Part shown: one piece after another, positions 8,030 to 33,048 of the stretch
How positions within the stretch are numbered: position 1 is the stretch's first letter
Layout of the letters: every line of letters starts with the position of its first letter
Assembly (NCBI GenBank): GCA_964509455.1
Contig: CAZDXS010000245.1
Span: 9,392 to 73,391 of the forward strand
Reading direction: 5' to 3'
Source of the DNA: an uncultured Enterobacteriaceae bacterium
Lineage (GTDB): Bacteria; Pseudomonadota; Gammaproteobacteria; Eutrophobiales; Eutrophobiaceae
DNA length: 64,000 nucleotides
The notes under the pieces: model-generated
Databases searched by the model: none
The model's input: the letters and a program-made list of their open reading frames with translations, nothing else
Told to the model about the DNA's origin: nothing
Position numbers and translations under genes: made by a program

Positions 8030-8124
8030 AACGTGCGTGCCTCCGCTTGAATGCGTTCAGGGTAGATTATACGCCTTATCCGCCCGCCGTTGCACTGCCT
8101 TTGCGCCGGCGGGCGGGCGCCTGC

Positions 8125-8445
8125 TCACTTCTTTCGGGCGGCTTTTTCCTCGTGGCCGGAGACGCCGAAGCGCCGTTCCAGCTCCGCCAGCACTCGGGCG
8201 GGATGAACATCCAAGTGCGCCAACAATATCAGGGTGTGGAACCACAGGTCTGCGGTTTCGTGCACGACGGCGTCCGCGTTCAGGTCGGCGGCGCTGGCCG
8301 CTTCCGCCAGCTCGCCCGCCTCCTCCGCCACTTTCTCCAGGATGGCCGGCGTCCCGCGTGCGTACAGGGAAGCCGTGTAGGACTTGTCGGGGGCGGCGCG
8401 GCGGCGCTCTCTCAGCACTTCCGCCAGTTCTTCCACTATGCTCAT
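8125..8445 (-). CDS. hisE: phosphoribosyl-ATP pyrophosphatase
   Basis: 106 aa. SYTASLYARGTPAILEKVAEEAGELAEA...ETADLWFHTLILL matches HisE. Confidence 0.9.
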   Translation of the reverse strand: MSIVEELAEVLRERRRAAPDKSYTASLYARGTPAILEKVAEEAGELAEAASAADLNADAVVHETADLWFHTLILLAHLDVHPARVLAELERRFGVSGHEEKAARKK

Positions 8446-8514
8446 GGTTGTCTCCCGCCAGGGGGCGGTCCGTTGCCCGCCGCCGTTGCCGCGCCCCGCC
8501 GGACGCCGCGCAGG

Positions 8515-8931
8515 TTACTTATCAGAATCGCCATAGATGGCAACCGGGTCCTTGACGACGGGGTCCGCCTCCTCCCAGCCCGCCGCCGTTTTGCGCAGAA
8601 AAAAGCAGCTGGGGCGCCCGGTGTGGCAGGCGATGCCGCCGTCCTGCTCCACCAGCAACAACACGGCGTCGGCGTCGCAGTCCAGGCGTATTTCCCGCAC
8701 TTTCTGAACATGGCCGGACTGCTCGCCCTTGCGCCACAGCGCTTGGCGGGACCGGGACCAGTAAACGGCGCGGCCCTCCTCCCAGGTGAGCCGCAGGGCC
8801 TCGCGGTTCATCCATGCCAGCGTCAGCACGCGGCCGCCGCCGTGTTCCTGGGCGATGGCGGGAACCAGCCCCTCCGCGCTCCACTGGACGCGGTCCAGCC
8901 AGGCGGCCTGGTTGTCGGCGGCGCGGGACAC
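8515..8931 (-). CDS. hisI: phosphoribosyl-AMP cyclohydrolase
   Basis: [26 protein letters not shown]...[22 protein letters not shown]...DCDADAVLL...CHTG matches HisI. Confidence 0.92.
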
Positions 8932-8934
8932 GGC

Positions 8935-9708
8935 TCACATCCTCACCGGCAGGCGGTGCGCCGCCAGTGCCTGTTTCGCTTCCGCCACGGTGTGCCTGCC
9001 GAAGTGGAAAATGCTGGCCGCCAGCACCGCGTCGGCTTTCCCTTCGGTGACGCCTTCCACCAAGTGGCGCAACTCGCCGACACCGCCGGAGGCGATGACT
9101 GGAATCGGCACGGCAGTGCTGACCGCCCGGGTCAGGGGCAGGTCGAAGCCGTTGCAGGCGCCGTCCCGGTCCATGCTGGTCAGCAACAGCTCGCCGGCGC
9201 CGGCGGCGGCCATTCGCCGCGCCCAGTCCACGGCGTCAACGCCGGTGGCGCGCCGCCCGCCATGGGTGAACACCTGCCAGGCCGGCACCGCATCGGGGGC
9301 GCTGACTTGCTTGGCGTCCAGGGCCACGACAATGCACTGGGAGCCGAATTCCCGGGCGGCATCGCGCACGAATTCCGGGTTTTCCAGCGCCGCCGTGTTG
9401 ATGCTGATCTTGTCGGCGCCGGCGTTCAACAGGCGGCGAATGTCCTCCAGGGAGCGGATGCCGCCGCCCACGGTCAGGGGAATGAACACCTGGTCCGCCA
9501 CGGACTCCACCACCTCCTGCATGGTGTCCCGGCCCTCGTTGCTGGCGGTGATGTCGAGAAAGACCAGCTCGTCGGCGCCCTGCTCGTCATAGCCGCGCGC
9601 CGCCGCCACCGGGTCGCCTGCGTCCGTGATGTTGACGAACTGAACGCCCTTGACCACCCGGCCGGCGTCCACGTCCAGGCAGGGGATGATGCGTTTCGCC
9701 AGTCCCAT
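8935..9708 (-). CDS. hisF: imidazole glycerol phosphate synthase cyclase subunit
   Basis: [24 protein letters not shown]...[12 protein letters not shown] is canonical HisF. Confidence 0.96.
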
Positions 9709-9717
9709 GGCGTATTT

Positions 9718-10464
9718 TCAGTCGGCCGCCAGGTCGGCCGCCAGCGCCAGGCCTTCCTTGAGGTCAAGGGTCCCCTCGTAGATGGCGCGGCCGGTGATGG
9801 CGCCGATGATGTTGTCCTCGGGCACGGCGCACAGGGCCCGAATGTCTTCCAAGTCCCGGATGCCGCCGGAGGCGATGACCGACACCGCCACTTCCCCCGC
9901 CAGCTTGCGGGTGGCGTCCAGGTTGAGGCGCTCCATCATGCCGTCGCGGCCGATGTCGGTGAAAATGATGGCGGACGCCCCGTCCTGCTCGAAGCGGCGG
10001 GCCACATCGATGACGTCGTGGTGGGACTGCTTGGACCAGCCCTCTGTCGCCAGTTTCCCCTCTTTCGCGTCCAGCCCGACGATGACGTGGCCGGGAAACT
10101 CGATGCAGACGTCGGCGACAAAATGCGGCGTGGTCACCGCGCGGGTGCCGATGATCACGTAATTGACGCCGGCGTCCAGGTAGGCCTGTATCGTGTCCTC
10201 GTCGCGAATGCCGCCGCCCACCTGGATGGCGACGTCCGGACAGGCCTCGGCAATGTCGTGAATCACCGCGGCGTTCACGGGACGACCGCCGGCGGCGCCG
10301 TCCAGGTCAATGAGGTGCAGGCGGGCGGCGCCGGCCGCCGCCCACTTTTGCGCCATCGCCACCGGGTCGTCGCCGTACACGGTCGCGGCGCTCATGTCGC
10401 CCTGGCGCAGGCGCACGCATTTACCGCCTTTTATGTCAATCGCGGGAATAAGTAATTTGGTCAT
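9718..10464 (-). CDS. hisA: ProFAR isomerase (1-(5-phosphoribosyl)-5-[(5-phosphoribosylamino)methylideneamino]imidazole-4-carboxamide isomerase)
   Basis: [24 protein letters not shown]...LHLIDLDGA is canonical HisA. Confidence 0.95.
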
Positions 10465-21084: not shown

Positions 21085-21620
21085 TCGTCCTGTTTATCCC
21101 TCTTGAATATCAGCTTCACGCGGCTGTCCTCCCCGCTGCCGGGCGTACTGGTGGCTTTCACCCGGCTGAGTTCCGTGTCGTACTCGATTCTCTCGCCCGC
21201 CAGGGTCGCCGTGCCCTCGCCTTTTTTTATCCAGGCCTCCCCGATCAGCACGATCAGGTTTTTCAGGTCGTGGAACTCCATTCGCAACGCCGCCGCCTGG
21301 TCGGGCGTCTCGCTGTCGTCCGGCAACTGCTGGTAGGTGGCGGGCTTGCCCTCCAGCACCATGAGCTCCAGCAGGTCGTCCCGGGTGCTGTGCACCGTCA
21401 TGCGCTCGCCGGTCATGCGAATGGATCCCTGCTTGACCACGATATTGCCCTGGTAGGTGCTGATTCGATTCGGCTCGTCCAGTTCCACCTCGTCCGCCTC
21501 CACTTCAATGGGCTGATTCTTGTCGGTGGAAAGGGCGAACGCCGGCAGGGCGAGCGCAAGACAGAGTGCGCCGGCGAGGGCGTCAGCTGCCGGGCGCGGC
21601 GTCAAAAACAGTTTTTTCAT
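21081..21620 (-). CDS. lptA: LPS transport periplasmic protein LptA
   Basis: 179 aa. It has a signal peptide and an OstA-like sequence ([45 protein letters not shown]). Confidence 0.9.
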
Positions 21621-22203
21621 GTTCGATAATCTCCAGTCTGTCTTGTGGAAGAAACGCGCGCAACCCGATGCCGGTGACGACGGTACCGCCTCTCACTATG
21701 GTTGCGCGTTGGTCCGTCTCGGCGTATTCCTCGTCCAGAAATATGCGCACATCCGCCGTGTCGACCTCCAGCACGGCCGCGCCCGCGTCGTCGTACTCCC
21801 GTATTTTCACCGGGCCGCTCAGTACTATGGTATCACTGTTTCCCCGGCGTCGTCCCTGTTCCGCGATGATGTACAGGGGCGGCTTGTCTTCCCGAAACAG
21901 CTCCACTTCCAGTTTCAACAGCTCCGTGATGTTCTCCTCCGGATAATGGGCCATGTAGGCCGCGGTCAGCCGGTTCCGGGGGCTGCCGTCCTGTTTCATT
22001 CTCAGGGTGGTGAAGTCCTCCATGTAATAATCCGGCAGGCGCCCCTGATGTTGCCTCGCGGCGGCCGGGTCGTCCGCCAGCCACGCCAGCAATCCCGCGC
22101 TGCCGGTCACCACCAGCAACAGGGCAAGCAACGCCAGGCGGCGCCCCGACAGGCCGTTGCTGCGCCGCGCCTGGATGCGCAATAACGCGCGCCACAATCT
22201 CAT
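21583..22203 (-). CDS. lptC: LPS export system protein LptC
   Basis: 206 aa with an N-terminal membrane anchor and an LptC-like beta-jellyroll sequence. It lies immediately upstream of lptA. Confidence 0.85.
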   Translation of the reverse strand: MRLWRALLRIQARRSNGLSGRRLALLALLLVVTGSAGLLAWLADDPAAARQHQGRLPDYYMEDFTTLRMKQDGSPRNRLTAAYMAHYPEENITELLKLEVELFREDKPPLYIIAEQGRRRGNSDTIVLSGPVKIREYDDAGAAVLEVDTADVRIFLDEEYAETDQRATIVRGGTVVTGIGLRAFLPQDRLEIIEHEKTVFDAAPGS

Positions 22204-22278
22204 CGCGCCGGCCCCGGGCTTTCAACAAGGCGCTGGGGCGGTTTTTGGGGCAGGTTGCCCGCGGCCCGGTTGCCGTCG

Positions 22279-25200
22279 TTACAGGTTGTCATTCATCCCC
22301 GACATTTTTGAGCGGATTTTCTGCGTCTCCACCGAGACGTGGATGACCTGGCGAAGCAGCCGTATCAACGCGGCCCGATGGTCTTGCCACTGGTAGGGGC
22401 ATTGCCGCAGCAGTTCCGTCACCTCGTCTGAATGATGTTTCCTCTCCTTCGGCCGCCCCTCATGCTGGTGCTCCGCCAGGGGCCAGAGCATGGCGGGGTC
22501 GCCCGACAACTGGTAGTCCCAGGCCGCTTGCGGAATGTTCCGAATCTCCGTTTTCGTATCGATGCGAATGATTTTTCCACCCGTCTTGCTGACGCCGACC
22601 CGGCAGATTTTCTCGGGCGGATCGGCGGCATGCCACCGCTTTGGTCCCACCACCTTGCAATGACGGTCCTCCGGACATTCATCGAAGCGGGTGTGCAACC
22701 GGGCCAGCGCTCTGCCCGCTTCCGCCCATTCCCGGAAACGGGGGTGCAAGGGCAACCGGGGCAGGGATACGCGCAGGTTCCCGGCGAAGCGCGTGGCGTA
22801 CTCCGGATCGTTCAGCACCGCGTACGCGTAATAAAAAATATCCTCCCGGGTGATGCGCTGTTGCTTATAGTGTGCGCGAAAGCGCTCTAAGGCGAGGTCC
22901 GTGATGTTCGAGCGCTTGTTGCCGTTCTCGTCATAGACGTAGAGAGGGATATATTGGGGGGAAGGCAACACTTCACCATCCGGCACTGTGTCGCTGAGCA
23001 AGGCATCAAACGGCTTCTTTTTACCGGGGGACGTAAAACCGATGACTAGGTTGTCGGAAGCTCCCCGTATACGGAGCGGAAAAATTTTTTTCAGCTGGTA
23101 AAGGCGATGAATAAGGCGGGGGCGATAATACAGTTGCTTGCGGGTGAACGGCCGCCACAGGACGGTGCGAATGGCCTGAGAATCGTAGGCAATTCCTCCA
23201 TCGTCCCCTGCCGCATACAACGCCAGTTCGGTGGTCCACTTGATATGCGGCTTGAAGAATTCTTTAATGAGCCTGTTACCGAAGCGGGTCAGGTCTTTGC
23301 GGTTTTCCGGCGTGTTCTGCAACGCCGGCGGCAACTCGTCACGGGAAGCATGGTATCGCCTGCGCTCCTCTTCATAAATGCTCACGAAACGCCGCACCTT
23401 GATTTCCAGCGCGGCGCGGCCCAGGTCCCACATCCAGTCATCTCGTCTTGTTGCGCTTCCCATGCTGTACAACGCAAATACGGGAATTTCTCCCACTTCT
23501 TGCCGGCCTTTCTCGTATTTCTGCTTGTATTCCTTGCTGACGGCGGGCATTGGCAACCTGTCAAAGCCCGTATCAGCCTGCGTTGGACACAGGGGGCCGC
23601 CCCCGTCCCGCTCAAGAGACGTCCAGCCAGGGGTGTTGTCCTTGTCATCCAACCACCTCAGCTTGGTCTCGGCGCTCTCTCCATGCAGGACGCAGTGGTA
23701 CATCACCCGGGCGTCGGTCCCGCCGGAGTCTTTCTTGATGGCGAATATCACCTGGCAACCAACCTTGTTGGGGAACACGTTCCCATCCGAAGCCCCTTCT
23801 CCTCCCAGATCAAGAATATACAGGGCAGTGCACTGCTCGCGCAGGTATTGCCGCAACGGCGCATCGGAAACGGAGTCCAGGAAACCGCGATTGGTAATCA
23901 GCGCAACCATTCCTTGCTCCCGGATCCTGTCCAAGGACCAGACAAGAAAACGCTTGTACTGGTCCGTGGAAGACGGCTTTTGCACCCCGCTGCCCCGGTA
24001 CATGTCCGTCAACCGGGCGTCCAGGGCCGGATAGCTGGCGTTCTCATTCATCTCCATTGCATTCTTCTGGGAGGCGCGCCAGGGCGGATTCCCGATGACC
24101 AGGGTGATGTCGGTGTCGCGCTGCTTGCGTACCCGCTTGGTGTTTTCTTTCGAGAACCCGCCGCCCTCCATCTCAACCTGTTCCCCTTCCCCGGTCAGGG
24201 GCAACGCCAGGGTGTCCTGGTAGCACAGGCCGGGAAACTGCTGGTCCGTCTCACCCCCCGTCAAGTTATACAACGTGCGCTGAACGGCCACGCAGGCGAC
24301 GTAGTACGCCAGGAGCGATACCTCGTTGGCCCACAAGGCGCCGCGCCCGTCCTTGCCTTGCCCGGCCGCCAGGTACTTGGCCTGCAGTTTTTTGCTCCCG
24401 CCCTTTTTTGCGGCAATATGCCGCATGACGGCCGTCACAAAAGTTCCCGTCCCCGTGGCCGGGTCCAGGATGGGAACCTGCGGCGATTCCAGCCCCTTGC
24501 CAAAATGCTCGCGCAGCAGCGAGTCCGAGGTGCGCACCATGAAGTTCACCACCTCCTGAGGGGTATAGACAATGCCCAGCTTATCGCCGGACTTCTTTGC
24601 ATAAGCCCAGTAGAACTGCTGATAGACGTCCTTCAGCAGTTGCTCCGCCTTGTCCGGATGTTTCTCGACGCTCTTGGCCAAATCATACAAGTCCGAGTAG
24701 TAAGCTTGCACTTTCTGGGTGAGGTTTCCCCACTCTCCTGGCCCTGCCAGCTGGTTCTGTAGAGAATCCAGCTCCTTGGCGATCGGGTTGGTTCGGTCCA
24801 TGTCCTGGCCGTACAGGGAGCGGAGAAACTCTCCAGTCAGCACGTGTTGGACCAACATTTCTGTTACTTCGCTCTCTCCTACTGCTCCCTTGCCGCCCAT
24901 CAACTGGGAAATTTCCGCGGCGGCCGTTTTTACCGCGGATTCTGATGCCTTTCGCAGGAATATACCGTTCAAGTTTGCGGCAATCCTTGGAATGTCTTCA
25001 CTCAACGTTGCCCATGCCTCCTTGAATTTCCTATCGATTTGCCCGGCGCGCGTGAAAAACTCCTCCAGTAGCTGAACGAAGCCTGCCGGCTCGCCAATCT
25101 CGGCTGTTTTCGGTTTTGGAGAATCCTTTCCGCCCCCAACGCTTCCCCCTTTTGGGGACTGATGCAAGCGAACCTCCGTGCCGGAATCTTCGAACAGCAT

Positions 25201-25638
25201 ATTGGACATTTCATACTCGTCCCTCTGCTTTTGCCTGACCTTATCCATAATCTTGCCGGGACAGCAGGCCTCCCACCAGCCGATCACCATTCCCAGGCCG
25301 CCCAGCGCCTTGACTTGCCCGTCAGGACGCTTGCCGGGCGACTGCTCCACCTCCTGAAAAAAACTGCACTTGTAGTGGGGAGCGAGCTCTATCATCAGTT
25401 GAGCAAATGCGTCCCGGCGGTCCACTTCCTTGGTCCTTCGGTCTTTCGTCAGCTCCAGCTGACGCTGGTAATAGGCCGCCAGGGCCGAGACAACAGTTTC
25501 GCGGTATTTACGGGTCTTGCCGCTGAGGCTGCCGCGCAAAGCAACCCGGAGCCTGGACTCCTCGTGATACCCGGCATTCTCGATTCTGGCAGCGACAGAA
25601 TCCAGGAGCCTGATAGTTTCTTTTTTTGTAGAACGCAT
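22279..25638 (-). CDS. large N6-adenine DNA methyltransferase-like protein, paralog A (PD-ExK-like N-terminus, gamma-class MTase, type ISP-like C-terminal specificity region)
   Basis: 1119 aa. Motif X GIVYTPQEVVNFMV, motif I ILDPATGTGTF and motif IV VIGNPPW are present. The C-terminus DIFYYAYAVLNDPEYATRFAGNLRVSLPRLPL...AGRALARLHTRFDE...VIHVSVETQKI resembles type ISP/IIG TRD-C regions. The N-terminus reads RPDG-x16-WWEAC. Confidence 0.85.
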   Translation of the reverse strand: MRSTKKETIRLLDSVAARIENAGYHEESRLRVALRGSLSGKTRKYRETVVSALAAYYQRQLELTKDRRTKEVDRRDAFAQLMIELAPHYKCSFFQEVEQSPGKRPDGQVKALGGLGMVIGWWEACCPGKIMDKVRQKQRDEYEMSNMLFEDSGTEVRLHQSPKGGSVGGGKDSPKPKTAEIGEPAGFVQLLEEFFTRAGQIDRKFKEAWATLSEDIPRIAANLNGIFLRKASESAVKTAAAEISQLMGGKGAVGESEVTEMLVQHVLTGEFLRSLYGQDMDRTNPIAKELDSLQNQLAGPGEWGNLTQKVQAYYSDLYDLAKSVEKHPDKAEQLLKDVYQQFYWAYAKKSGDKLGIVYTPQEVVNFMVRTSDSLLREHFGKGLESPQVPILDPATGTGTFVTAVMRHIAAKKGGSKKLQAKYLAAGQGKDGRGALWANEVSLLAYYVACVAVQRTLYNLTGGETDQQFPGLCYQDTLALPLTGEGEQVEMEGGGFSKENTKRVRKQRDTDITLVIGNPPWRASQKNAMEMNENASYPALDARLTDMYRGSGVQKPSSTDQYKRFLVWSLDRIREQGMVALITNRGFLDSVSDAPLRQYLREQCTALYILDLGGEGASDGNVFPNKVGCQVIFAIKKDSGGTDARVMYHCVLHGESAETKLRWLDDKDNTPGWTSLERDGGGPLCPTQADTGFDRLPMPAVSKEYKQKYEKGRQEVGEIPVFALYSMGSATRRDDWMWDLGRAALEIKVRRFVSIYEEERRRYHASRDELPPALQNTPENRKDLTRFGNRLIKEFFKPHIKWTTELALYAAGDDGGIAYDSQAIRTVLWRPFTRKQLYYRPRLIHRLYQLKKIFPLRIRGASDNLVIGFTSPGKKKPFDALLSDTVPDGEVLPSPQYIPLYVYDENGNKRSNITDLALERFRAHYKQQRITREDIFYYAYAVLNDPEYATRFAGNLRVSLPRLPLHPRFREWAEAGRALARLHTRFDECPEDRHCKVVGPKRWHAADPPEKICRVGVSKTGGKIIRIDTKTEIRNIPQAAWDYQLSGDPAMLWPLAEHQHEGRPKERKHHSDEVTELLRQCPYQWQDHRAALIRLLRQVIHVSVETQKIRSKMSGMNDNL

Positions 25639-25853
25639 AACTGGGCTGGCTGACGTAGAAAATCGCTAAGGGTTCACTGGCCGCAACGGCAGAAACGATG
25701 ATGTCTTTGGCGAGTGTATCACATCAGCCGCGACAACAACGGTGCGTGCCCGCGCCTGTTGGGGCAAAACCGGTTGCTTCATCCCTGGGAATCAATAAAG
25801 TCCGCTGGATCGGGGGTTTGGGCAGGTTGCCCGCGGCCCGGTTGTCGCCGCCG

Positions 25854-28800
25854 TTACAGGTTGTCATTCATGCCGGACATTTTTGAGCGGATTTTCTGCG
25901 TCTCCACCGAGACGTGGATGACCTGGCGAAGCAGCCGTATCAACGCGGCCCGATGGTCTTGCCACTGGTAGGGGCATTGCCGCAACAGTTCCGTCACCTC
26001 GGACGAGCGATGTTGCCGCGCTTTCGGGCGCCCCTCATGCTGGTGCTCCGCCAGCGGCCAGAGCATGGCGGGGCGACCCGCCAACTGGTAGTCCCAGGCC
26101 GCTTGCGGAATGTTCCGAATCTCCGTTTTCGTATCGATGCGAATGATTTTTCCGCCCGTCTTGCTGACGCCGACCCGGCAGATTTTCTCGGGCGGGTCGG
26201 CGGCATGCCACCGCTTTGGTCCCGCCACTTCGCAATGACGGTCCTCCGGACATTCATCGAAGCGGGTGTGCAACCGGGCCAGCGCTCTGCCCGCCTCCGC
26301 CCATTCCCGGAAACGGGGGTGCAAGGGCAACCGCGGCAGGGCAACGCGCAGGTCCCCGGCGAAGCGCGTTGCGTACTCCGGATCGTTCAGCACCGCATAC
26401 GCATAGTAGAAGACGTCCTCTTGGGTGATGCGCGGCCGCTGGTAGTGCGCGCGAAAGCGCTCCAAGGCGAGGTCCGTGATGTTCGAGCGCTTTTTGCCGT
26501 GCTCGTCATAGACGTAAAGAGGGATATATTGGGCGAAAGGCAGGAAATGATGGTCCGGCACCGCGTTGCTGAGCAATGCGCCAAACGACCTCTTTTTACC
26601 GGGGGACGTAAAACCAATGACCAGGTTGTCGGAACCCCCTTGCCTGTCGAACGGGAAGATGCTTCCCATCTGGTAGGGGCGGTGAAGCAAGACGGGCCGG
26701 TAATACAGTTGCTTGCGGGTGAACGGCCGCCACAGGGCGGTGCGAATCGCCCGGGAGTCGCAGGCAAGCGTCCCGTCCTCCCTTGTTGCGTACGGCGCCA
26801 GTTCGGTGGTCCACTTGATGCGCTGGTCGAAAAATTCTTTCATCAGCCGGTGGCCGAAGCGGGTCAGGCTTTTGCGATTTTCCGGCGTGTTTTGCAACGC
26901 CGGCGGCAACTCGTCATGGGAAGCATGGTATCGCCTGCGCTCCTCTTCATAAATGCTCACGAAGCGCCGCACCTTGATTTCCAGCGCGGCGCGGCCCAGG
27001 TCCCACATCCAGTCATCCCGGTTTGATTTGCTCCCCATGCTGTACGACGCAAACACGGGGACTTCTCCCGCCTCCTGCCGGCCCTGCTTGTATTCCTTGC
27101 TGACGGCGGGCATCGGCAACCTGTCAAAGCCCGTAGCGGCAGGGGTTGGACACAGGGGGCCGCCCCCGTCCTGTTCAAGAGACGTCCAGCCGGGGGTGTT
27201 TTTCCCGTTGTCCAACCACCTCAGCTTGGTCTCGGCGCTCTCTCCATGCAGGACGCGATGGTACATCGCCCGGGCGCCGGGTGCGCCGGAGTCTTTCTTG
27301 ATGGCGAAAATCACCTGGCAACCGGTCTTGTTGCCGGAGAACACGTTGCCGTCCGCAGACCCGTTCAACCCGTCGCCGCCCAGATCAAGAATATACAGGG
27401 CAGTGCACTGCTCGCGCAGGTATTGCCGCAACGGCGCATCGGAAACGGAGTCCAGGAAACCGCGGTTGGTGATCAGCGCGACCAGCCCCTGCTTCTGGAC
27501 CCGGTCCAGGGACCAAACAAGAAAACGCTTGTACTGGTCCGTGGAAGACGGCTTTTGCACCCCGCTGCCCTGGTACATGTCCGTCAACCGGGCGTCCAGG
27601 GCCGGATAGCTGGCGTTCTCATTCATCTCCATGGCATTCTTCTGGGAGGCGCGCCAGGGCGGATTCCCGATGACCAGAGTGATGTCGGTGTCGCGTTGCC
27701 GGCGCACCCGCTTGGTGTTCTCTTTTGAGAACCCGTTGCCTTCCAACTCAACCTGCTCCCCTTCCCCGGTCAGGGGCAACGCCAGGGTGTCCTGGTAACA
27801 CAGGCCGGGAAACTGCTGGTCCGTCTCGTACTCCCCGCCCTCCGTCAGGTTGTACAGGGTGCGCTGAACGGCCACGCAGGCGACGTAGTACGCCAGGAGC
27901 GACACCTCGTTGGCCCACAGGGCGCCGCGCCCGTCCTTGCCGTGCCCGGCCGCCAGGTACTTGGCCTGCAGTTTTTTGCTCCCGCCTCTTTTTGCGGCAA
28001 TATGCCGCATGACGGCCGTTACGAAAGTTCCCGTCCCCGCGGCCGGGTCCAGGATGGGAACCTGCGGCGATTCCAGCCCCTTGCCGAAATGCTCGCGCAA
28101 CAGCGAGTCCGAGGTGCGCACCATGAAGTTCACCACCTCCCGGGGGGTATAGACAATGCCCAGCCTGTCGCCGGACTTCCTGCCGTAAGCCCAGTAGAAC
28201 TGCTGATAGACGTCTTTCAGCAACTGCTCCGCCTGGTCCGGATAATCCTCGACGCTCCGCGCCAATCCTTGCAGGCCGGAGTAGTAGTCCCGCACTTTCC
28301 GGGTGAGGTTCCCCCACTCCCGCGGCCCCGCCAGCTGGTTCTGCAGGGCGTTCAACTCCCTGGCGATCGGGTTGGTGCGGTCGATGTCCTGGCCGTACAG
28401 GGAGCGGAGGAACTCCCCGGTCAGCACGTGCTGGACCAGCATGTCGGTCACTTCCTGTCCGCTCACGGCGCCCTCGCCGCCCATCAACCGGGAGATTTCC
28501 ACGGCGGCCGCCTGTACCGCGGCCGCCGCCTCTTGCTGTTGGAAGATGCTGTTCAGGCTTGCGGCGATTTCTGGTATTTCTTTTTCCAGCGCCGACCAGG
28601 CCTCCTTGAATTTCCTGTCGATTTGCCCGGCGCGGGTGAAGAAGCGATCCAGCAACCCGATGAACTGCGCCGGGTCGTCAATCCCGACGCGTTCTTGCTG
28701 CGGGGGCGCCGCGCCGTCCGCCTGGCACAGGCAGGCCTGCGTGCCGCAATCCTCGAACAGCATGTTGGACATTTCGTACTCGTCCGCCTGTTTTTGCCTG

Positions 28801-29222
28801 ATCTTGTCCGCAATCCTGCCGGGACGGCAGGCCTCCCACCAGCCGATGACCATTCCCAGGCCGCCCAGCGCCTTGACCTGTCCGTCCGGGCGTTTGCCGG
28901 GCGACTGCTCCTGCTCTGGAATGAACCCGCACTTGTAGAGGGGGGCGAGCGCTCTCATCAGGCCAACGAATGCGTCGCGGCGGTCCAACTCTCCCGTGAC
29001 GCGGCTCTTCGTCAGCTCCAACTGACGCTGGTAATAGGCCGCCAGGGCCGAGACGACGACCCCGCGATGGTTACGGGTCTTGCCGCTGAGTCTGCCGCGC
29101 AAGGCGTCCCCGAGCCTGGACTCCTCGTGATACCCGGCCGCCCTGATCCTGGCAGCGACAGAATCCAGGCGCTTGATGGTTTCCTGGTTCGCAGAACGCA
29201 TGGCTGGATAGGTTGACGTCAA
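25854..29222 (-). CDS. large N6-adenine DNA methyltransferase-like protein, paralog B
   Basis: 1122 aa, collinear with paralog A and roughly 80-90 percent identical by eye, with the same motifs (DPAAGTGTF, VIGNPPW). By alignment with A the start may be ATG 29201 (MRSANQETIKRLD). Confidence 0.85.
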   Translation of the reverse strand: MTSTYPAMRSANQETIKRLDSVAARIRAAGYHEESRLGDALRGRLSGKTRNHRGVVVSALAAYYQRQLELTKSRVTGELDRRDAFVGLMRALAPLYKCGFIPEQEQSPGKRPDGQVKALGGLGMVIGWWEACRPGRIADKIRQKQADEYEMSNMLFEDCGTQACLCQADGAAPPQQERVGIDDPAQFIGLLDRFFTRAGQIDRKFKEAWSALEKEIPEIAASLNSIFQQQEAAAAVQAAAVEISRLMGGEGAVSGQEVTDMLVQHVLTGEFLRSLYGQDIDRTNPIARELNALQNQLAGPREWGNLTRKVRDYYSGLQGLARSVEDYPDQAEQLLKDVYQQFYWAYGRKSGDRLGIVYTPREVVNFMVRTSDSLLREHFGKGLESPQVPILDPAAGTGTFVTAVMRHIAAKRGGSKKLQAKYLAAGHGKDGRGALWANEVSLLAYYVACVAVQRTLYNLTEGGEYETDQQFPGLCYQDTLALPLTGEGEQVELEGNGFSKENTKRVRRQRDTDITLVIGNPPWRASQKNAMEMNENASYPALDARLTDMYQGSGVQKPSSTDQYKRFLVWSLDRVQKQGLVALITNRGFLDSVSDAPLRQYLREQCTALYILDLGGDGLNGSADGNVFSGNKTGCQVIFAIKKDSGAPGARAMYHRVLHGESAETKLRWLDNGKNTPGWTSLEQDGGGPLCPTPAATGFDRLPMPAVSKEYKQGRQEAGEVPVFASYSMGSKSNRDDWMWDLGRAALEIKVRRFVSIYEEERRRYHASHDELPPALQNTPENRKSLTRFGHRLMKEFFDQRIKWTTELAPYATREDGTLACDSRAIRTALWRPFTRKQLYYRPVLLHRPYQMGSIFPFDRQGGSDNLVIGFTSPGKKRSFGALLSNAVPDHHFLPFAQYIPLYVYDEHGKKRSNITDLALERFRAHYQRPRITQEDVFYYAYAVLNDPEYATRFAGDLRVALPRLPLHPRFREWAEAGRALARLHTRFDECPEDRHCEVAGPKRWHAADPPEKICRVGVSKTGGKIIRIDTKTEIRNIPQAAWDYQLAGRPAMLWPLAEHQHEGRPKARQHRSSEVTELLRQCPYQWQDHRAALIRLLRQVIHVSVETQKIRSKMSGMNDNL

Positions 29223-29268
29223 AAACTTCTATGGGTTTACATTCCGTGACATTTTAGAACGACGGCGG

Positions 29269-29850
29269 TCATGCTTCAATAAACCGCGCCGTAATCTCAT
29301 CGTATTTGCCCTGGGCTTTCAGGATGAGGTCGCATATTTGCCGCACCGCGCCGGCGCCGCCGTTGCGGGCGGTCACCCAGTCGGCGCACTGCCGCACCGC
29401 GGGATGGGCGTCCGCCGGAGCGAGGGCCAGTCCCGCCATGGCCATGGCCGCCAGGTCCAACAGGTCATCGCCGGCGTAGGCGACCGCCTCGCTTTCCAGT
29501 CCCAGCCGCTTCATCACCTGGGCCAGCGCCGCCGGCTTGTGGTCCCGCCCCTGGTACGCGTACTCTATGCCCAGCTCCTCCATGCGCACCGCCACCGCGG
29601 CGGAGGAGCGGGCGCTGATGACGGCGACCTGGCAACCGGCCTGCTTTAGCAACGTCAACCCCTGCCCGTCGCGGGCGTGAAACCGCCTGAACTCGCGGCC
29701 GTCGTCGCTGAGAAAAAGGCCGCCGTCCGTCAATACGCCGTCCACGTCGAAGACCGCCAGCCGGACGCGGGCCGCTTTTTCCATGACGGCGGGCGGCGCA
29801 CCGGGCTCGTCCCGCGCGGCGGGGCGTTCTGTTGTCGATTTTTCCGGCAT
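29269..29850 (-). CDS. kdsC: 3-deoxy-D-manno-octulosonate 8-phosphate phosphatase
   Basis: VRLAVFDVDGVLTDGGLFLSDDGREFRRFHARDGQGL is an HAD-family KdsC sequence. The start may be the internal MEKAARV. Confidence 0.9.
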   Translation of the reverse strand: MPEKSTTERPAARDEPGAPPAVMEKAARVRLAVFDVDGVLTDGGLFLSDDGREFRRFHARDGQGLTLLKQAGCQVAVISARSSAAVAVRMEELGIEYAYQGRDHKPAALAQVMKRLGLESEAVAYAGDDLLDLAAMAMAGLALAPADAHPAVRQCADWVTARNGGAGAVRQICDLILKAQGKYDEITARFIEA

Positions 29851-29913
29851 CTCAGCCGGGTCTCCCCGTGCGGCTGCGGTGCCGCAGCGTCCCGTTGCGA
29901 GCGGCCGCCATGG

Positions 29914-30906
29914 TCAGACCACCTGCGCCCGCAACAGGTCGTGCATGTTCAGGGCGCCCGCCAGCCGCCGCTCAGCGTCCAGCACCAGCAGGGCGTTGAT
30001 GCGGTGTTCTTTCATCATGCGCAACACCTCGGCTGCCGGGGCGTCCGGCGCAACAGAGCGGGCGCCCCGGGTCATCACCTGGGCCATGGTGGTCGCGCGC
30101 ACGTCATGGCCGGCGTCCAGGGCGCGGCGCAGGTCGCCGTCGGTGAAGATGCCCGCCGCTTCATCGCTTGCCGTGACCACTGCGGTCATGCCCAGTCCTT
30201 TCGCGCTCATTTCCAGCAGGGCCTGGTCCAGGGGGGCGTCTTCACGCACGCGCGGCACGTCGGCGCCGGTGCGCATTACATCGCTGACCCGCAACAGCAA
30301 CCGCCGCCCCAACGGCCCGCCGGGGTGGGAGCGGGCGAAATCCTCCTCGCCAAAGCCGCGAGCGGCCGCCACCGCCAGGGCCAGGGCGTCGCCCAATGCC
30401 AGGCAGGCCGCGGCGCTGGCCGTGGGCGCCAGGTTCAGCGGGCAGGCTTCCCTGGCGACGCTCGCGTCAAGACACACCGCGGCGGCCCTGCCCAGGGTGG
30501 AGCCGGGGTTGCCGGTCATGGCGAGCAGGGGAACGTCCAGGCGCTTGATGACGGGCAACAGGACAAGCAGTTCGGCGGCCTCGCCGGACTTGGACAGAGC
30601 TACCGCCACGTCGTTTCGGGCAATGACGCCAATGTCGCCATGGGCGGCCTCGCCCGGATGAAGGAAGAAAGACGGCGTACCGGTGCTGGCCAGGGTGGCC
30701 GCCAGCTTGCGGGCGATGTGGCCGGACTTGCCCACGCCGGTAACCACGGTCTTGCCCTTGCAGTCCAGGAGCAACCGGCAGGCCGCCGCAAAACGCTCAT
30801 CGATGCGCCGGCGCAGGGCGGCAACGGCCTGTTGCTCCGTGTCGATGACCGCCAGGGCCGACTTTATCAGCCGGTCTGGGTCGGGATGCCCGGCGCCGCC
30901 GCCCAT
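29914..30906 (-). CDS. kdsD: arabinose-5-phosphate isomerase (SIS + tandem CBS)
   Basis: The start is set to ATG 30906, just after the upstream stop at 30914. VVTGVGKSGHIARKLAATLASTGTPSFFLHPGEAAHGDIG is the KdsD/KpsF signature. Confidence 0.93.
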   Translation of the reverse strand: MGGGAGHPDPDRLIKSALAVIDTEQQAVAALRRRIDERFAAACRLLLDCKGKTVVTGVGKSGHIARKLAATLASTGTPSFFLHPGEAAHGDIGVIARNDVAVALSKSGEAAELLVLLPVIKRLDVPLLAMTGNPGSTLGRAAAVCLDASVAREACPLNLAPTASAAACLALGDALALAVAAARGFGEEDFARSHPGGPLGRRLLLRVSDVMRTGADVPRVREDAPLDQALLEMSAKGLGMTAVVTASDEAAGIFTDGDLRRALDAGHDVRATTMAQVMTRGARSVAPDAPAAEVLRMMKEHRINALLVLDAERRLAGALNMHDLLRAQVV

Positions 30907-30913
30907 GATGCTC

Positions 30914-31858
30914 TCAGCCTCGAAACAGCCAGTACTGGTAACCGACGAAACCGGCCAGCAACAGGGCCCCCTCCCAGCGGGAGAGCCGGTTTTTGCCCGC
31001 ATGAAAGATCATCCAGCCCATGGCCAGGCTCAGCGCCGCCATGACGGAAAAATCCCGCCACAGCACCTCCGCGCCGAAGCGGCCGGGATGAATCAGGGGC
31101 GGGACGCCCAACACCATCAGCATGTTGAACATGTTGGAGCCGACCACGTTGCCTATGGCGATGTCCACCTCGTTCTTGACGACGCTCGCCAGGGAAGCAG
31201 CCAGTTCCGGCAGGCTGGTGCCTACCGCCACCACGGTCAGGCCGATGACCAGTTCGCTGACGCCCAGGGCGCGGGCGATGTCGACGGCGCCGCGCACCAG
31301 CAACTCGGCGCCCAACAACAGCACCGGCAGGCCGATCAGCATCAGGACCAGCGGCCGGGCAATGCCCGACTGCGGTTTCTCCGCATCGTGGGGCGGCGCG
31401 GCTTGGGCTTCCCGCAGCGCCGGCTTGACGATCCAGCCCATCATCACCGCCAGCGCGACCAACAGCAGCAGGCCGTCCAGTCGTCCCAGCTCCCGGTCCA
31501 GCATCACCAGGAATGCGCCCAACATGGCCAGGATCATGCACAGGAACTCGCGCCGCAGGGCCTGGGACTGGACCGGCAGGGGCGCCAGCAAGGCGGTGGC
31601 GCCCAGCACCAACCCAATGTTGGCGATGTTGGAGCCTAGGGCGTTGCCGATGGCGATGGTGGTTTTTCCATCCCAGGCGGCAACGCTGCCCACCAGCACT
31701 TCCGGCATCGAGGTGGCGACTCCGACGATGGTCAAGCCGATGACCAGGGGCGGAACGCCCAGGTTGCGGGCCGTGCCGGAAGCGCCGGCGACAAACCGGT
31801 CGGCGCCCAGCACCAGCAGGGCCAGGCCGCCGGCCAACAGGATGATAGCGGTCAACAT
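30914..31858 (-). CDS. calcium/sodium antiporter (CaCA family, YrbG-like)
   Basis: From MLTAIILLAGGLALLVLGADRFV. Two alpha-repeats are present (GLTIVGVATSMPE and GLTVVAVGTSLPE). Confidence 0.88.
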   Translation of the reverse strand: MLTAIILLAGGLALLVLGADRFVAGASGTARNLGVPPLVIGLTIVGVATSMPEVLVGSVAAWDGKTTIAIGNALGSNIANIGLVLGATALLAPLPVQSQALRREFLCMILAMLGAFLVMLDRELGRLDGLLLLVALAVMMGWIVKPALREAQAAPPHDAEKPQSGIARPLVLMLIGLPVLLLGAELLVRGAVDIARALGVSELVIGLTVVAVGTSLPELAASLASVVKNEVDIAIGNVVGSNMFNMLMVLGVPPLIHPGRFGAEVLWRDFSVMAALSLAMGWMIFHAGKNRLSRWEGALLLAGFVGYQYWLFRG

Positions 31859-32016
31859 GTACTCGTTTGTTTTGCGTAAGATTGTCGGCGGCGTTGAGTG
31901 CGTCCCTGTCCCTGCCGGGAGCTCCACTTTCTCATGTCCGCGGCGGCGCCGCAAACCCGCGGCGGCGCACTGTTATAAACTATACCATTAGTTCCAATGT
32001 TATGGGGGTAAAACCG

Positions 32017-32352
32017 ATGTACTACTGGTTGCTGCTCGCCGCGGCGATTGTGTTGGAAGTCGCCGGCACCACGTTTATGAAACTGTCTTATGGGTTCACC
32101 CGCCTGGTTCCGTCGTTGCTGGTGGCGGTTTTCTACGCCGGTTCTTTCCTGGCCCTGGCGCTGTGCCTGAAAAAACTGGAAGTCAGCGTCACCTACGCCA
32201 TCTGGGCCGGAGTGGGCACCGCCTTGGTGGCGCTGATTGGCGTGGCGTATTTTCACGAGCCCATGACCCCGATGAAGCTGGCCGGCCTGGCCCTGATCAT
32301 TGCCGGGGTGGTGAGCCTGCATCTGGGCGGGACCGCCCCGCTTTCCGACTGA
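32017..32352 (+). CDS. SMR-family small multidrug resistance transporter
   Basis: About 111 aa. MYYWLLLAAAIVLEVAGTTFMKLS carries the conserved membrane Glu of EmrE/SugE. An alternative start is at 32002. Confidence 0.85.
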   Translation: MYYWLLLAAAIVLEVAGTTFMKLSYGFTRLVPSLLVAVFYAGSFLALALCLKKLEVSVTYAIWAGVGTALVALIGVAYFHEPMTPMKLAGLALIIAGVVSLHLGGTAPLSD

Positions 32353-32370
32353 GCGGCGGCGGGCAGCCTC

Positions 32371-33048
32371 ATGCGCGCGATGATCCTGGCGGCGGGGCGG
32401 GGCGAGAGAATGCGCCCGCTGACCGCAACGCTGCCCAAGCCCATGTTGGCGGCCGCCGGCAAGCCCCTGTTGCAATACCAGGTGGAGGCGCTGGCGCGGG
32501 CCGGTTTTGCCGAGCTGGTCATCAACCGGGCGCGGCTGGGCGAGAAAATAACCGCTTATTTCGGCGACGGCGCTGATTTTGGCGTGTCCATACGCTACTC
32601 CGACGAGGGCGACGAGCCGCTGGAGACCGGCGGCGGCGTCCGGCAGGCCCTGCCCCTGCTGGGCGCCGAGCCGTTCCTGGTGGTGAACGGCGACATCTGG
32701 ACCGATTTCCCCCTGGCCGCCCTGAAACAGGCGGCGCCGGCGGCGGCGCACCTGGTGCTGGCGCCCAACCCGCCCCACCATCCCCGGGGAGACTTCGCCC
32801 TGGAGGACGGGCGCGTGCTGGCTGCGGGCCGCCCCGCTTTCACGTTCAGCGGCATCGGCGTGTATCACCCCTCCCTGTTTGCCGACATTCCAGAGCGCAA
32901 CTTCCCTCTGGCGCGGGTCCTGCGGCCGGCCCTGGAACGGCGGCAGGTCACGGGCGAGCTGTATGACGGCCGCTGGTTCGACATCGGCACACCGGCGCGG
33001 CTGGCGGCGCTGGAGCAGTTGCTGGACGAGTGTGCGGCTCAGCGGTAG
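32371..33048 (+). CDS. murU: nucleotidyltransferase, MurU-like (N-acetylmuramate 1-phosphate uridylyltransferase family)
   Basis: MRAMILAAGRGERMRPLTATLPKPML is the NTP-transferase G-rich loop. The 225-aa size and sequence are like MurU. Confidence 0.8.
   Translation: MRAMILAAGRGERMRPLTATLPKPMLAAAGKPLLQYQVEALARAGFAELVINRARLGEKITAYFGDGADFGVSIRYSDEGDEPLETGGGVRQALPLLGAEPFLVVNGDIWTDFPLAALKQAAPAAAHLVLAPNPPHHPRGDFALEDGRVLAAGRPAFTFSGIGVYHPSLFADIPERNFPLARVLRPALERRQVTGELYDGRWFDIGTPARLAALEQLLDECAAQR

What the first reader, a model, noticed from the sequence alone, without database searches (positions are those of the whole stretch)
22204..29268. Tandem pair of ~1120-aa methyltransferase-like proteins inserted between kdsC and lptC: candidate uncharacterised single-polypeptide R-M/defence module
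The kdsD-kdsC-lptC-lptA-lptB-rpoN block is among the most conserved gene strings in Proteobacteria. Here 7 kb is inserted at the kdsC/lptC junction on the same strand. It encodes two collinear paralogs. Each has (i) an N-terminal PD-(D/E)xK-like segment, (ii) a ~200-aa helical region, (iii) a gamma-class N6-adenine MTase (motif X GIVYTPQEVV, motif I DPAxGTGTF, motif IV NPPW), and (iv) a C-terminal region with sequences I recall from type ISP / type IIG specificity domains (IFYYAYAVLNDPEYATRFAGNLRVSLPRLPL, AGRALARLHTRF, VSVETQKI). There is no helicase/translocase motor, no separate nuclease or specificity subunit, and no integrase or transposase. The architecture resembles an MmeI-like type IIL/IIG enzyme or the MTase-TRD half of a type ISP enzyme. 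The duplicated, diverged arrangement inside an essential LPS operon is not a described system. The two copies may recognise different targets, act as a heteromer, or form an active/decoy pair.
Basis: partly seen in the sequence, partly recalled or inferred. Interest (0 to 1): 0.8.

Follow-up and report, generated by a model that had tools for sequence, protein, structure and literature searches.

The report
Two tandem DrdV-like restriction-modification genes
Two 83%-identical copies of a single-protein restriction-modification enzyme of an already characterised type (DrdV-like, Type IIL) sit between two lipopolysaccharide genes; this is an ordinary mobile defence gene in an unusual place, with one unusual substitution in its DNA-cutting site.

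Summary
Two intact collinear genes lie on the minus strand: copy A at 25854-29201 (1115 aa) and copy B at 22279-25638 (1119 aa). They fill the 7.1 kb between kdsC and lptC.

The claim that this is not a described system is not supported. Both proteins align end to end with DrdV (PDB 7LO5, E 1e-121, best Foldseek hit). DrdV is a structurally and biochemically characterised Type IIL enzyme built as nuclease, helical connector, gamma-class N6-adenine methyltransferase and Type-ISP-like recognition domain.

The insert is flanked by a 45-nt duplication of the kdsC-3'/lptC-5' overlap and carries no mobility gene. This matches the known "R-M insertion with long target duplication". One ~90%-identical relative has a single copy at the same site. 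None of 51 more distant relatives has any.

Copies A and B and the relative's allele are equally diverged mosaics (dS ~0.33, about three times the flanks; dN/dS ~0.3). They differ most in a recognition-domain loop that contacts bases in DrdV, so different target sequences are likely.

The real oddity is the nuclease site. This rare subclade (six sequences) replaces the canonical PD-ExK lysine, essential in DrdV, with Cys, Ser or Gly, so cleavage activity is uncertain. Interest is modest.

The parts
29269..29850 (-). kdsC (KDO-8-phosphate phosphatase), the gene upstream of the insert. Its last ~45 nt form the left copy of the flanking direct repeat.
   Evidence: NCBIfam KdsC families NF007019 (E 4e-54) and TIGR01670 (E 5e-44, above cut-off)
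29277..29321 (-). Left copy of the 45-nt direct repeat: the functional kdsC 3' end. It contains a remnant of the lptC start (MRLRRGLL... against the true MRLWRALL...).
   Evidence: the repeat finder family D13, 78% identity. 35/45 identical, P about 4e-12; translations of the remnants. The same structure is present in L001.
29251..29279 (-). Sigma-70-like promoter match (TTGAAG-17-TAAAAT) just upstream of copy A, overlapping the kdsC stop codon.
   Evidence: Consensus scan only: 3 sites found against 1.7 expected, so this is weak evidence.
25854..29201 (-). Copy A, a DrdV-like Type IIL R-M gene (1115 aa). Approximate domains: N-terminal extension, aa 1-60; nuclease, aa 61-168 (28698-29021); connector, aa 169-323 (28233-28697); MTase, aa 324-646 (27264-28232); TRD, aa 647-1115 (25857-27263).
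   Evidence: AF2 model has mean pLDDT 72. Best Foldseek hit is 7LO5 DrdV, E 2e-49.
28827..28835 (-). Copy A codons E123-A124-C125: the position of the canonical ExK motif, with Cys in place of Lys.
   Evidence: Alignment A1, alignment to DrdV and the DrdV active site described in bioRxiv 10.1101/2021.01.06.425610.
26517..26570 (-). Copy A hypervariable TRD loop (SNAVPDHHFLPFAQYIPL). It is homologous to DrdV residues 796-812, which include the base-contacting residues D803 and K807.
25639..25853 (-). Spacer between A and B. Its first ~48 nt are homologous to the sequence downstream of B, followed by a degenerate start of the direct repeat. About 150 nt of unique sequence follow. The last ~25 nt resemble the sequence upstream of A.
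   Evidence: the repeat finder family D9, alignments, no credible ORF or RNA family.
22279..25638 (-). Copy B, a DrdV-like Type IIL R-M gene (1119 aa). Approximate domains: nuclease, aa 61-175 (25114-25458); connector, aa 176-330 (24649-25113); MTase, aa 331-650 (23689-24648); TRD, aa 651-1119 (22282-23688). Its GC content is 0.58, against 0.66 for the whole window.
25264..25272 (-). Copy B codons E123-A124-C125 (ExK position, Lys replaced by Cys). The PD motif Asp, D106, is at 25321-25323.
22942..22995 (-). Copy B hypervariable TRD loop (SDTVPDGEVLPSPQYIPL), homologous to the DrdV base-contact loop containing D803 and K807.
22180..22224 (-). Right copy of the 45-nt direct repeat. It holds the true lptC start codon (22203) and a remnant of a kdsC 3' end (LKARGRRDEIVARVIA...).
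21583..22203 (-). lptC, the gene downstream of the insert. It starts 75 nt after the stop of copy B, and no convincing terminator lies between them.
   Evidence: NCBIfam TIGR04409, E 9e-33; terminator scan.

Best explanation
The 7.1-kb insert is a small mobile restriction-modification unit made of two allelic copies of one gene. Each copy encodes a DrdV-like Type IIL (Type IIG) single-chain enzyme.

By homology with DrdV, each protein would work as follows:
- It binds its own short asymmetric DNA site with the C-terminal TRD and the MTase domain.
- It flips one adenine into the NPPW pocket and methylates it (m6A, one strand). This marks host DNA as self.
[quoted passage not shown] In DrdV this happens only after several site-bound molecules come together through their connector and nuclease domains.

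The two copies most likely recognise different sequences. Their largest differences fall in the TRD loop that contacts bases in DrdV, and in an MTase loop next to the flipped base. The pair would therefore give two restriction specificities.

The unit entered the overlap between the kdsC 3' end and the lptC 5' end by 'insertion with long target duplication'. It is probably transcribed together with the LPS-transport genes.

Status of each step:
- Shown: the homology, the architecture, the boundaries of the insert, the restriction of the insert to this lineage, and purifying selection on both copies.
- Inferred: methylation (very likely), different specificities (likely), and cleavage (uncertain, about even odds). 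Cleavage is uncertain because the canonical PD-ExK lysine, whose mutation abolishes catalysis in DrdV, is Cys here.
For: Architecture and homology:
- Pfam finds Type_ISP_C (E 3e-69), N6_Mtase and Eco57I.
- The PADLOC Type IIG model PDLC03621 matches over its full length, E 2e-114.
- DrdV (7LO5) matches at E 1e-121. Copy B residues 70-757 and 816-1112 align to DrdV residues 24-699 and 733-1024.
- The AF2 model's best Foldseek hits are all DrdV chains (E 2e-49, 1113 columns), followed by LlaBIII and LlaGI.
- The N-terminal domain is modelled with confidence (pLDDT 74-94) and has the alpha-beta-beta-beta-alpha-beta topology.

Conserved functional residues:
- Four of the five DrdV nuclease active-site residues are kept (E25, D64, E79 and K94 correspond to E71, D106, E123 and K137). 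They are invariant across the subclade even at ~50% overall identity.
- The N-terminal 215 aa are 44% identical to P0004, against 49% for the whole protein, so this domain is not decaying.
- MTase residues equivalent to DrdV N448, F562, K567 and K486 are present.

Selection:
- Both copies are intact. dN/dS is 0.27-0.32.

Likely different specificity:
- The hypervariable segments include B 882-899, which corresponds to DrdV 796-812 with the base contacts D803 and K807. The three alleles read DGEVLPSP, DHHFLPFA and DLDVLPTA.
- They also include B 608-624, the loop before the NVF motif.
- TaqII and TaqIII are 93% identical yet recognise different sites (PMC5587805).

Mobility:
- The insert is flanked by a 45-nt direct repeat.
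- Its GC content is 0.58-0.63, against 0.66 for the window.
- One relative with ~90% identical flanks carries a single allele at the identical site.
- None of 51 species-representative relatives has anything at the kdsC/kdsD-lptC junction.
- R-M insertions flanked by 46-bp target duplications that overlap gene 3' ends are documented (PMC2853133).
Against: [quoted passage not shown] It is Lys in 108 of 114 scored family members. Restriction activity may therefore be lost or altered.
- There is no methylome, transcript or phenotype data.
- Different specificity is inferred from only two DrdV-defined contact regions. The modelled TRD has low confidence in exactly those loops (pLDDT below 50 at residues 884-889).
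- No 'empty site' genome from the same genus is available. Only two genomes of this lineage exist in the collections searched.
- Co-transcription with lptC is inferred only from the absence of a predicted terminator.
Confidence: 0.6

Rival explanations
1. The proteins are nuclease-inactive descendants of a Type IIL enzyme. They would act only as two sequence-specific m6A DNA methyltransferases (orphan or epigenetic, or protective against other cells' enzymes). The N-terminal domain would be kept for folding, autoinhibition or oligomerisation.
For: - The canonical ExK lysine is replaced in every member of the subclade, by three different residues (C, S and G). This suggests no chemical role is required at that position.
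- Mutation of the equivalent DrdV K81 abolishes catalysis.
- The genes sit inside an essential housekeeping operon on the same strand, with no terminator before lptC.
- The N-terminal region has the highest dN of the protein, 0.18-0.20 against 0.03-0.09 in the MTase domain.
Against: - The other four active-site residues (E71, D106, E123, K137) and about 35 further positions of the nuclease domain are invariant across lineages that are only ~50% identical.
- dN/dS of the N-terminal 200 codons stays at 0.22-0.44. A dead domain would be expected to decay or be deleted.
- Active PD-(D/E)xK enzymes without this lysine exist: BamHI has Glu and BglII has Gln at that position (my own knowledge, not tested here).
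- A Lys three residues before the Asp (KRPDG or KKPDA) is present in 6 of 6 subclade members, against 11 of 110 others. It could substitute for the lost Lys, but this is one clade, so the evidence is weak.
- The alleles are as diverse and mosaic as is typical of defence genes.
Confidence: 0.27
2. The two copies are functionally coupled. DrdV-type cleavage needs three or four site-bound protomers, so A bound at its site and B bound at a different site could assemble into mixed complexes. This would raise the effective number of usable sites on foreign DNA. Alternatively, one copy could regulate the other as an active/decoy pair.
For: - DrdV cleaves only after connector-connector and nuclease-nuclease contacts form between several DNA-bound molecules.
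- A and B are adjacent, probably co-transcribed, and 83% identical.
- Patches of 95-98% nucleotide identity between A and B suggest ongoing gene conversion.
Against: - The connector (70% identity) and the nuclease/linker region (45-77%) are the most diverged parts between A and B.
- The closest relative manages with one copy.
- The other subclade members occur singly.
- Neither copy shows decay that would mark it as a decoy.
Confidence: 0.08
3. The tandem arrangement is an assembly artefact: two strain-level alleles of a single-copy gene joined head to tail in a metagenome-assembled contig.
For: - The lineage is known only from assemblies of uncultured bacteria.
- The relative L001 has one copy, with the same outer boundaries.
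Against: - The copies are only 86% identical at the nucleotide level and differ in GC content (0.63 against 0.58). They would assemble as separate sequences.
- They are joined by a 215-nt spacer with ~150 nt of unique sequence, not by a repeat collapse.
- Both proteins are recorded on the same 82.7-kb NCBI contig.
Confidence: 0.04

Closest known systems
DrdV (Deinococcus; Type IIL/IIG R-M enzyme, PDB 7LO5/7LVV, 1029 aa, recognises CATGNAC and cuts 10/8 nt downstream)
   Same: - The proteins align end to end in the same order: nuclease, helical connector, gamma-class N6A MTase, Type_ISP_C TRD (E 1e-121; best Foldseek hit).
- Conserved nuclease residues: E25, D64, E79 and K94.
- Conserved MTase pocket residues: N448, F562 and K567.
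- No ATPase motor.
   Different: - Only ~28-32% identity.
- The canonical K81 is Cys.
- NPPW replaces NPPY.
- There is an extra ~50-aa helical N-terminal extension and several insertions (for example AAGxGKDGRGALW in the MTase, and ELPPALQNTPENRK... in the TRD).
- The C-terminal KEKKPKDPTI...YRF motif of the family is replaced.
- The base-contact residues D803 and K807 are not conserved, so a different target is expected.
[quoted passage not shown]
   Same: Homologous coupler, MTase and TRD half: E 1e-74 to 8e-83; the Pfam Type_ISP_C and ISP_coupler models derive from these enzymes.
   Different: Type ISP enzymes carry a ~500-aa SF2 helicase-like ATPase between the nuclease and the MTase, and cut after translocation and collision. 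No such domain is present here: the PADLOC long-form model PDLC03597 matches only from its position 729 onward.
MmeI and BpuSI family (Type IIL/IIG)
   Same: The same functional class: single chain, N-terminal PD-ExK nuclease, gamma-class MTase, C-terminal TRD, one-strand methylation.
   Different: - The relationship is only distant: MmeI_Mtase E 0.09; BpuSI Foldseek E 6e-11 with TM 0.25.
- The TRD belongs to a different family.
TaqII and TaqIII (Thermus Type IIC/IIL paralog pair)
   Same: Two highly similar (93%) single-chain R-M paralogs in one strain that recognise different sequences (PMC5587805).
   Different: - TaqII and TaqIII lie on separate plasmids, not in tandem in a chromosomal operon.
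- They belong to a different subfamily.
R-M 'insertion with long target duplication' (Nobusato/Furuta/Kobayashi; PMC2853133)
   Same: A small R-M unit (under 20 kb) with no mobility genes, flanked by a direct duplication of more than 30 bp of the target that overlaps a gene's 3' end. The published Haemophilus influenzae cases have 46-bp repeats; this one has 45 nt.
   Different: - Here the repeat copies are only 78% identical.
- The unit holds two alleles of one gene.
- The target lies inside the kdsC-lptC overlap of the LPS-transport operon.
- No same-species empty site is available for comparison.

Membership tests
DrdV-like Type IIL (Type IIG) single-chain R-M enzymes | One polypeptide with collinear nuclease, helical connector, MTase and TRD, homologous over its full length to a characterised member | tested here: met
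   - 7LO5: E 1e-121, covering DrdV residues 24-699 and 733-1024.
- Foldseek: E 2e-49 over 1113 columns.
- PADLOC PDLC03621: profile positions 62-1010 of 1024.
DrdV-like Type IIL (Type IIG) single-chain R-M enzymes | Gamma-class N6-adenine MTase motifs (motif X xxVYTP, motif I DPAxGTGxF, motif IV NPP[YFW]) and the residues of the flipped-base pocket | tested here: met
   - GIVYTPQEVV, DPA[TA]GTGTF and NPPW are present.
- Equivalents of DrdV F562 and K567 (NVF...K) and of K486 are present.
- Pfam N6_Mtase E 1.5e-12 and Eco57I E 4e-6.
DrdV-like Type IIL (Type IIG) single-chain R-M enzymes | C-terminal TRD of the Type_ISP_C family | tested here: met
   PF18135: E 3e-69 and 5e-68, profile positions 2-327 of 342.
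DrdV-like Type IIL (Type IIG) single-chain R-M enzymes | Complete PD-ExK nuclease active site (DrdV E25, D64, E79, K81, K94; K81 is essential) | tested here: not met
   - E71, D106, E123 and K137 are present.
- The K81 equivalent is C125 in both copies, and S or G in the other subclade members.
- It is Lys in 108 of 114 scored homologues.
DrdV-like Type IIL (Type IIG) single-chain R-M enzymes | No ATP-dependent motor and no separate R, M or S subunit | tested here: met
   No helicase or ATPase domain in Pfam, PADLOC or NCBIfam. No other credible ORF in the insert.
DrdV-like Type IIL (Type IIG) single-chain R-M enzymes | Methylates one strand of an asymmetric site, and cleaves at a fixed distance after several sites come together | not testable with these tools
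   Needs methylome data and biochemical assays.
Type ISP R-M enzymes (LlaGI/LlaBIII) | SF2 helicase-like ATPase domain between the nuclease and the MTase | tested here: not met
   - Only the coupler, MTase and TRD align (LlaBIII residues 712-1271; LlaGI residues 548-1395).
- PADLOC PDLC03597 and PDLC03051 match only from profile position ~730-760 onward.
BREX PglX/BrxX or MADS MAD2 methyltransferases | Score above the family cut-off, and the companion brx or mad genes nearby | tested here: not met
   - NCBIfam BREX_6_MTaseX scores 11.6 bits against a cut-off of 900.
- MAD2 scores 23.8 bits against a cut-off of 720.
- The neighbours are kdsC and lptC.
R-M insertion with long target duplication (PMC2853133 criteria) | Insert under 20 kb carrying R and M functions, direct target duplication over 30 bp, no mobility gene, and absent from related genomes | tested here: met
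   - 7097-bp unit with a 45-nt direct repeat (35/45 identical).
- No integrase or transposase.
- Absent at this junction in 51 relatives.
- Caveat: no same-species empty site is available, and the R function is uncertain.

The most novel reading that the evidence does not exclude
The rare Lys-less subclade (Ex[C/S/G], NPPW, ~50-aa N-terminal extension) may be a functionally distinct offshoot of Type IIL enzymes. Two readings are open:
- It could be a pair of sequence-specific epigenetic m6A methyltransferases that have become fixed in, and are co-transcribed with, the essential lptCAB LPS-transport operon. Loss or polar disruption would then be counter-selected, so operon embedding would stabilise the genes.
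- It could be a nuclease with a rearranged catalytic site (for example, using K103 of KRPDG) whose two alleles cooperate in mixed cleavage complexes.
Probability: 0.15. Interest if true: 0.55.

Novelty: new variant of a known kind. Interest (0 to 1): 0.3.

Why it matters
In practical terms this adds two, and with the relative three, new alleles to the DrdV-like Type IIL family. These enzymes are useful because one recognition module sets both cutting and methylation. Naturally diverged alleles that are 83% identical, with differences concentrated in known contact loops, are good material for mapping recognition-code residues, as was done for MmeI and for TaqII/TaqIII.

Biologically there are three points:
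- An R-M unit can lodge inside the kdsC-lptC overlap of an otherwise very conserved essential operon and persist there across a split between related lineages.
- The alleles at this site are older than the split of their hosts (dS ~0.33 against ~0.12) and are mosaic. This fits long-term diversifying exchange at a defence locus.
- A whole subclade has lost the 'essential' PD-ExK lysine while keeping the rest of the active site. This gives a simple experimental test of how indispensable that residue is in Type IIL enzymes.

None of this changes current understanding of R-M systems.

Tried and rejected
- **Exact look-up of protein B (P0001):** not on record, so the source genome could not be named.
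- **Scan of 185,579 species-representative genomes with the subclade alignment A2:** no relative found. The same scan of JGI metagenomes found none. The scan of IMG/VR gave one irrelevant hit at 20% identity. The subclade is therefore known only from the window, one Logan contig, two ENA contigs and one fragment, P0121.
- **Searching for an empty site in the same genus with LptC:** only the L001 protein is closer than 60% identity.
- **Possible second pair in Spirosoma jeollabukense (P0088 and P0089 on one contig):** the alignment shows the same protein with two annotated starts, not a pair.
- **Lysine relocation:** K at D-3 is present in 6 of 6 subclade members against 11 of 110 others. This is a single clade and model coordinates cannot be inspected, so I kept it only as a lead.
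- **Type ISP structure paper (PMC4872093):** searched for named recognition loops to map the A/B differences; nothing usable was retrieved.
- **Rfam, tRNA, small-ORF and terminator scans of the insert and spacer:** nothing credible.
- **L001's single gene as a simple A/B recombinant produced by deletion:** rejected. It is ~83% identical to both copies, with dS of 0.31-0.36 to each, and its pattern of closest relative switches more than ten times along the gene.
- **BREX, MADS and Type I assignments:** rejected on score cut-offs and gene context.

Full report
**1. What is there**

The interval 22204-29268 is exactly the gap between the stop of kdsC (29269-29850) and the start of lptC (21583-22203). 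Both genes are on the minus strand, within a kdsD-kdsC-[insert]-lptC-lptA-lptB-rpoN-...-ptsN string confirmed by NCBIfam.

The gap holds two long minus-strand ORFs:
- Copy A, 25854-29201, 1115 aa from the ATG that matches the start of the other copies.
- Copy B, 22279-25638, 1119 aa.

They are collinear. Protein identity is 82-83% and nucleotide identity 86.4%. A 215-nt spacer with no credible ORF or Rfam match separates them. The other ORFs in the interval are the overlapping out-of-frame ORFs expected in DNA of ~60% GC.

**2. What the proteins are**

Pfam finds Type_ISP_C (E 3e-69 and 5e-68), N6_Mtase, Eco57I and a sub-threshold ISP_coupler match. The PADLOC model of a ~1024-aa Type IIG 'REase_MTase' family (PDLC03621) matches essentially end to end (E 2e-114). 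The longer Type ISP-like models match only from about profile position 730 onward, that is, without their ATPase.

Against PDB sequences the best hit is 7LO5/7LVV (1029 aa, E 1e-121), covering residues 24-699 and 733-1024 of that chain. LlaBIII and LlaGI follow, matching only the coupler-MTase-TRD half.

An AlphaFold2 model of copy A has mean pLDDT 72. Its N-terminal 175 residues score 74-94 and show the alpha-beta-beta-beta-alpha-beta core of PD-(D/E)xK nucleases. The model retrieves the six DrdV chains as its top Foldseek hits (E 2e-49, 1113 aligned columns), then LlaBIII and LlaGI, then BpuSI far behind.

7LO5 is the cryo-EM structure of DrdV. DrdV is a 1029-residue single-chain Type IIL enzyme that recognises CATGNAC, methylates one adenine and cuts 10/8 nt downstream. 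It has an N-terminal nuclease, a helical connector, an MTase and a C-terminal TRD. It cleaves only when several DNA-bound molecules assemble (bioRxiv 10.1101/2021.01.06.425610).

The family is also large: more than 1500 homologues at E below 1e-10, typically ~1000-1070 aa, many named 'type ISP restriction/modification enzyme' by NCBI.

**3. How this subclade differs from the rest of the family**

In an alignment of 24 family members and a motif census of the 120 best hits, the family's nuclease signature is PDG...G(Y)WE(A/S)K. Lys is present in 108 of 114 scored sequences.

Copies A and B and the close relative P0002 have GWWEAC. P0004 and P0005, 48-49% identical, have GWWEAS. An exhaustive HMMER search of 1.84 billion representatives with the N-terminal 215 residues found only four hits at E of 1e-3 or better. 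One is a fragment, P0121, with KKPDA...GSWEGG.

[quoted passage not shown] Here the equivalents of E25, D64, E79 and K94 (E71, D106, E123 and K137) are invariant, but the K81 equivalent is Cys, Ser or Gly.

The subclade also has:
- NPPW instead of NPPY (5 of 120).
- A ~50-aa helical N-terminal extension.
- Several insertions.

It is rare. It is absent from 185,579 species-representative genomes, from the JGI metagenome contigs and from IMG/VR.

The nuclease domain does not look abandoned. About 35 of its ~105 positions are invariant between lineages that are ~50% identical overall. Its identity to P0004 (44%) is close to the whole-protein value (49%). Its dN/dS among A, B and C is 0.22-0.44.

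A Lys at D-3 (KRPDG or KKPDA) accompanies the loss in 6 of 6 subclade members, against 11 of 110 others. This is one clade and I could not inspect coordinates, so it is only a lead. I therefore rate methylation as very likely and cleavage as roughly even odds.

**4. The two copies relative to each other**

A relative assembled from a different sample (L001, Logan SRR23238410) has flanks ~90% identical. It carries a single gene, C (P0002, 1121 aa), at exactly the same junction with the same outer boundaries.

A, B and C are mutually equidistant (83-84% protein identity). dS is 0.31-0.36, against 0.11-0.14 for kdsD, kdsC, lptC and lptA between the two genomes. dN/dS is 0.27-0.32.

Along the gene the closest pair switches repeatedly between AB, AC and BC in 150-nt windows. 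Some A-B stretches reach 95-98% identity. These are old, recombining alleles, not a recent in-place duplication, and C is not a simple A/B crossover product. GC content is 0.63 for A, 0.58 for B and 0.61 for C, against 0.66 for the window.

The segments where all three alleles differ include:
- B 882-899 (SDTVPDGEVLPSPQYIPL in B, SNAVPDHHFLPFAQYIPL in A, SNVVPDLDVLPTAQHIPL in C). It aligns to DrdV 796-812, which contains the base-contacting D803 and K807.
- B 608-624, the loop just before the NVF...K element (DrdV F562 and K567) that lines the flipped-adenine site.

TaqII and TaqIII are 93% identical and recognise different sequences (PMC5587805). Different specificities for A and B are therefore the most economical reading, though untested.

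**5. How the insert got there**

The 7097-bp unit is bracketed by a 45-nt direct repeat (29277-29321 and 22180-22224; 35/45 identical; chance P about 4e-12).
- The left copy is the working 3' end of kdsC and contains a remnant of the lptC start (MRLRRGLL...).
- The right copy carries the real lptC start (MRLWRALL...) and a remnant of a kdsC 3' end.

The target was therefore the kdsC/lptC overlap, and it was duplicated on insertion. L001 has the same repeat.

There is no integrase, transposase or tRNA gene in or beside the insert. This matches the class described by Furuta et al. as R-M 'insertion with long target duplication', including Haemophilus cases with 46-bp repeats that overlap gene 3' ends (PMC2853133).

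The A-B spacer begins with 48 nt homologous to the sequence downstream of B, plus a degenerate start of the repeat. This is compatible with a second insertion next to the first, or with unequal exchange between alleles. That is inference.

Among 51 species-representative relatives found through LptC (at most 63% identity, all uncultured Gammaproteobacteria), none has a gene between kdsC (or kdsD) and lptC. The insert is therefore specific to this lineage and not an ancient housekeeping feature. Only two genomes of the lineage exist in the collections, so presence/absence polymorphism within the genus could not be assessed.

**6. Expression context**

A weak sigma-70-like match lies just upstream of A (29279-29251). 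No convincing terminator separates A from B or B from lptC. lptC starts 75 nt after B and keeps its native 5' region within the repeat. Co-transcription with the LPS-transport genes is plausible but unproven.

**7. Verdict**

The finding is a real feature that can be clearly assigned: two tandem alleles of a DrdV-like Type IIL R-M gene, inserted by a known R-M mobility route into an unusual, conserved site.

- What remains unusual is the lysine-less nuclease site shared by a very rare subclade, together with the N-terminal extension, the NPPW motif and the tandem allelic arrangement. On that basis I class it as a variant of a known kind.
- Interest is modest at 0.3.

Noticed in passing
L004-L024 (loci), compared with window 29269-31002: In the 21 closest species-representative relatives, kdsD lies directly upstream of lptC and no kdsC homologue is found in the locus. 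More distant relatives and the window have kdsD-kdsC-lptC. The 'most conserved gene string' is therefore itself variable in this group.
   Followed up: partly
window 41555-45490: Two overlapping ORFs of more than 1200 aa lie on opposite strands (41555-45361 minus, 41807-45490 plus). Neither has a Pfam match at E of 1e-5 or better. One may be a real, large, unannotated gene.
   Followed up: no
window 8047-10455 (+), 47205-49289 (+), 31852-32868 (-): Long ORFs of 802, 694 and 338 aa have no Pfam or NCBIfam match. They may be spurious high-GC ORFs or unknown genes.
   Followed up: no
L002 3995-11339: The 49%-identical subclade member P0004 lies just downstream of a 233-aa unknown gene and a 1047-aa MmeI-like Type IIG gene (N6_Mtase, MmeI_Mtase, Eco57I). 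This is a small R-M island next to cytochrome c maturation genes, a different context from the window.
   Followed up: partly
L003 2614-8014: The subclade member P0005 is preceded by three transposase genes (DDE_3, DDE_Tnp_1 and IS1595-like). This suggests a different, IS-linked route of mobility for the same gene family.
   Followed up: no
window 22279-22660 vs 25854-26235, and 23794-24540 vs 27369-28124: Patches of 93-98% nucleotide identity between the two copies stand out against an 86% average. This suggests gene conversion between the tandem copies.
   Followed up: partly
whole window; record titles of L004-L054: The host lineage is very poorly sampled. The nearest LptC outside L001 is about 60% identical. 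Several related MAG names (APA_bin, RHO3_bin, SB0675_bin, Plut_) look like sponge or coral metagenome bins. That reading of the names comes from memory and is not verified.
   Followed up: no
protein P0035 (main family): One otherwise typical family member has GYWENQ in place of GYWE[AS]K. This is an independent loss of the canonical lysine outside the subclade.
   Followed up: no
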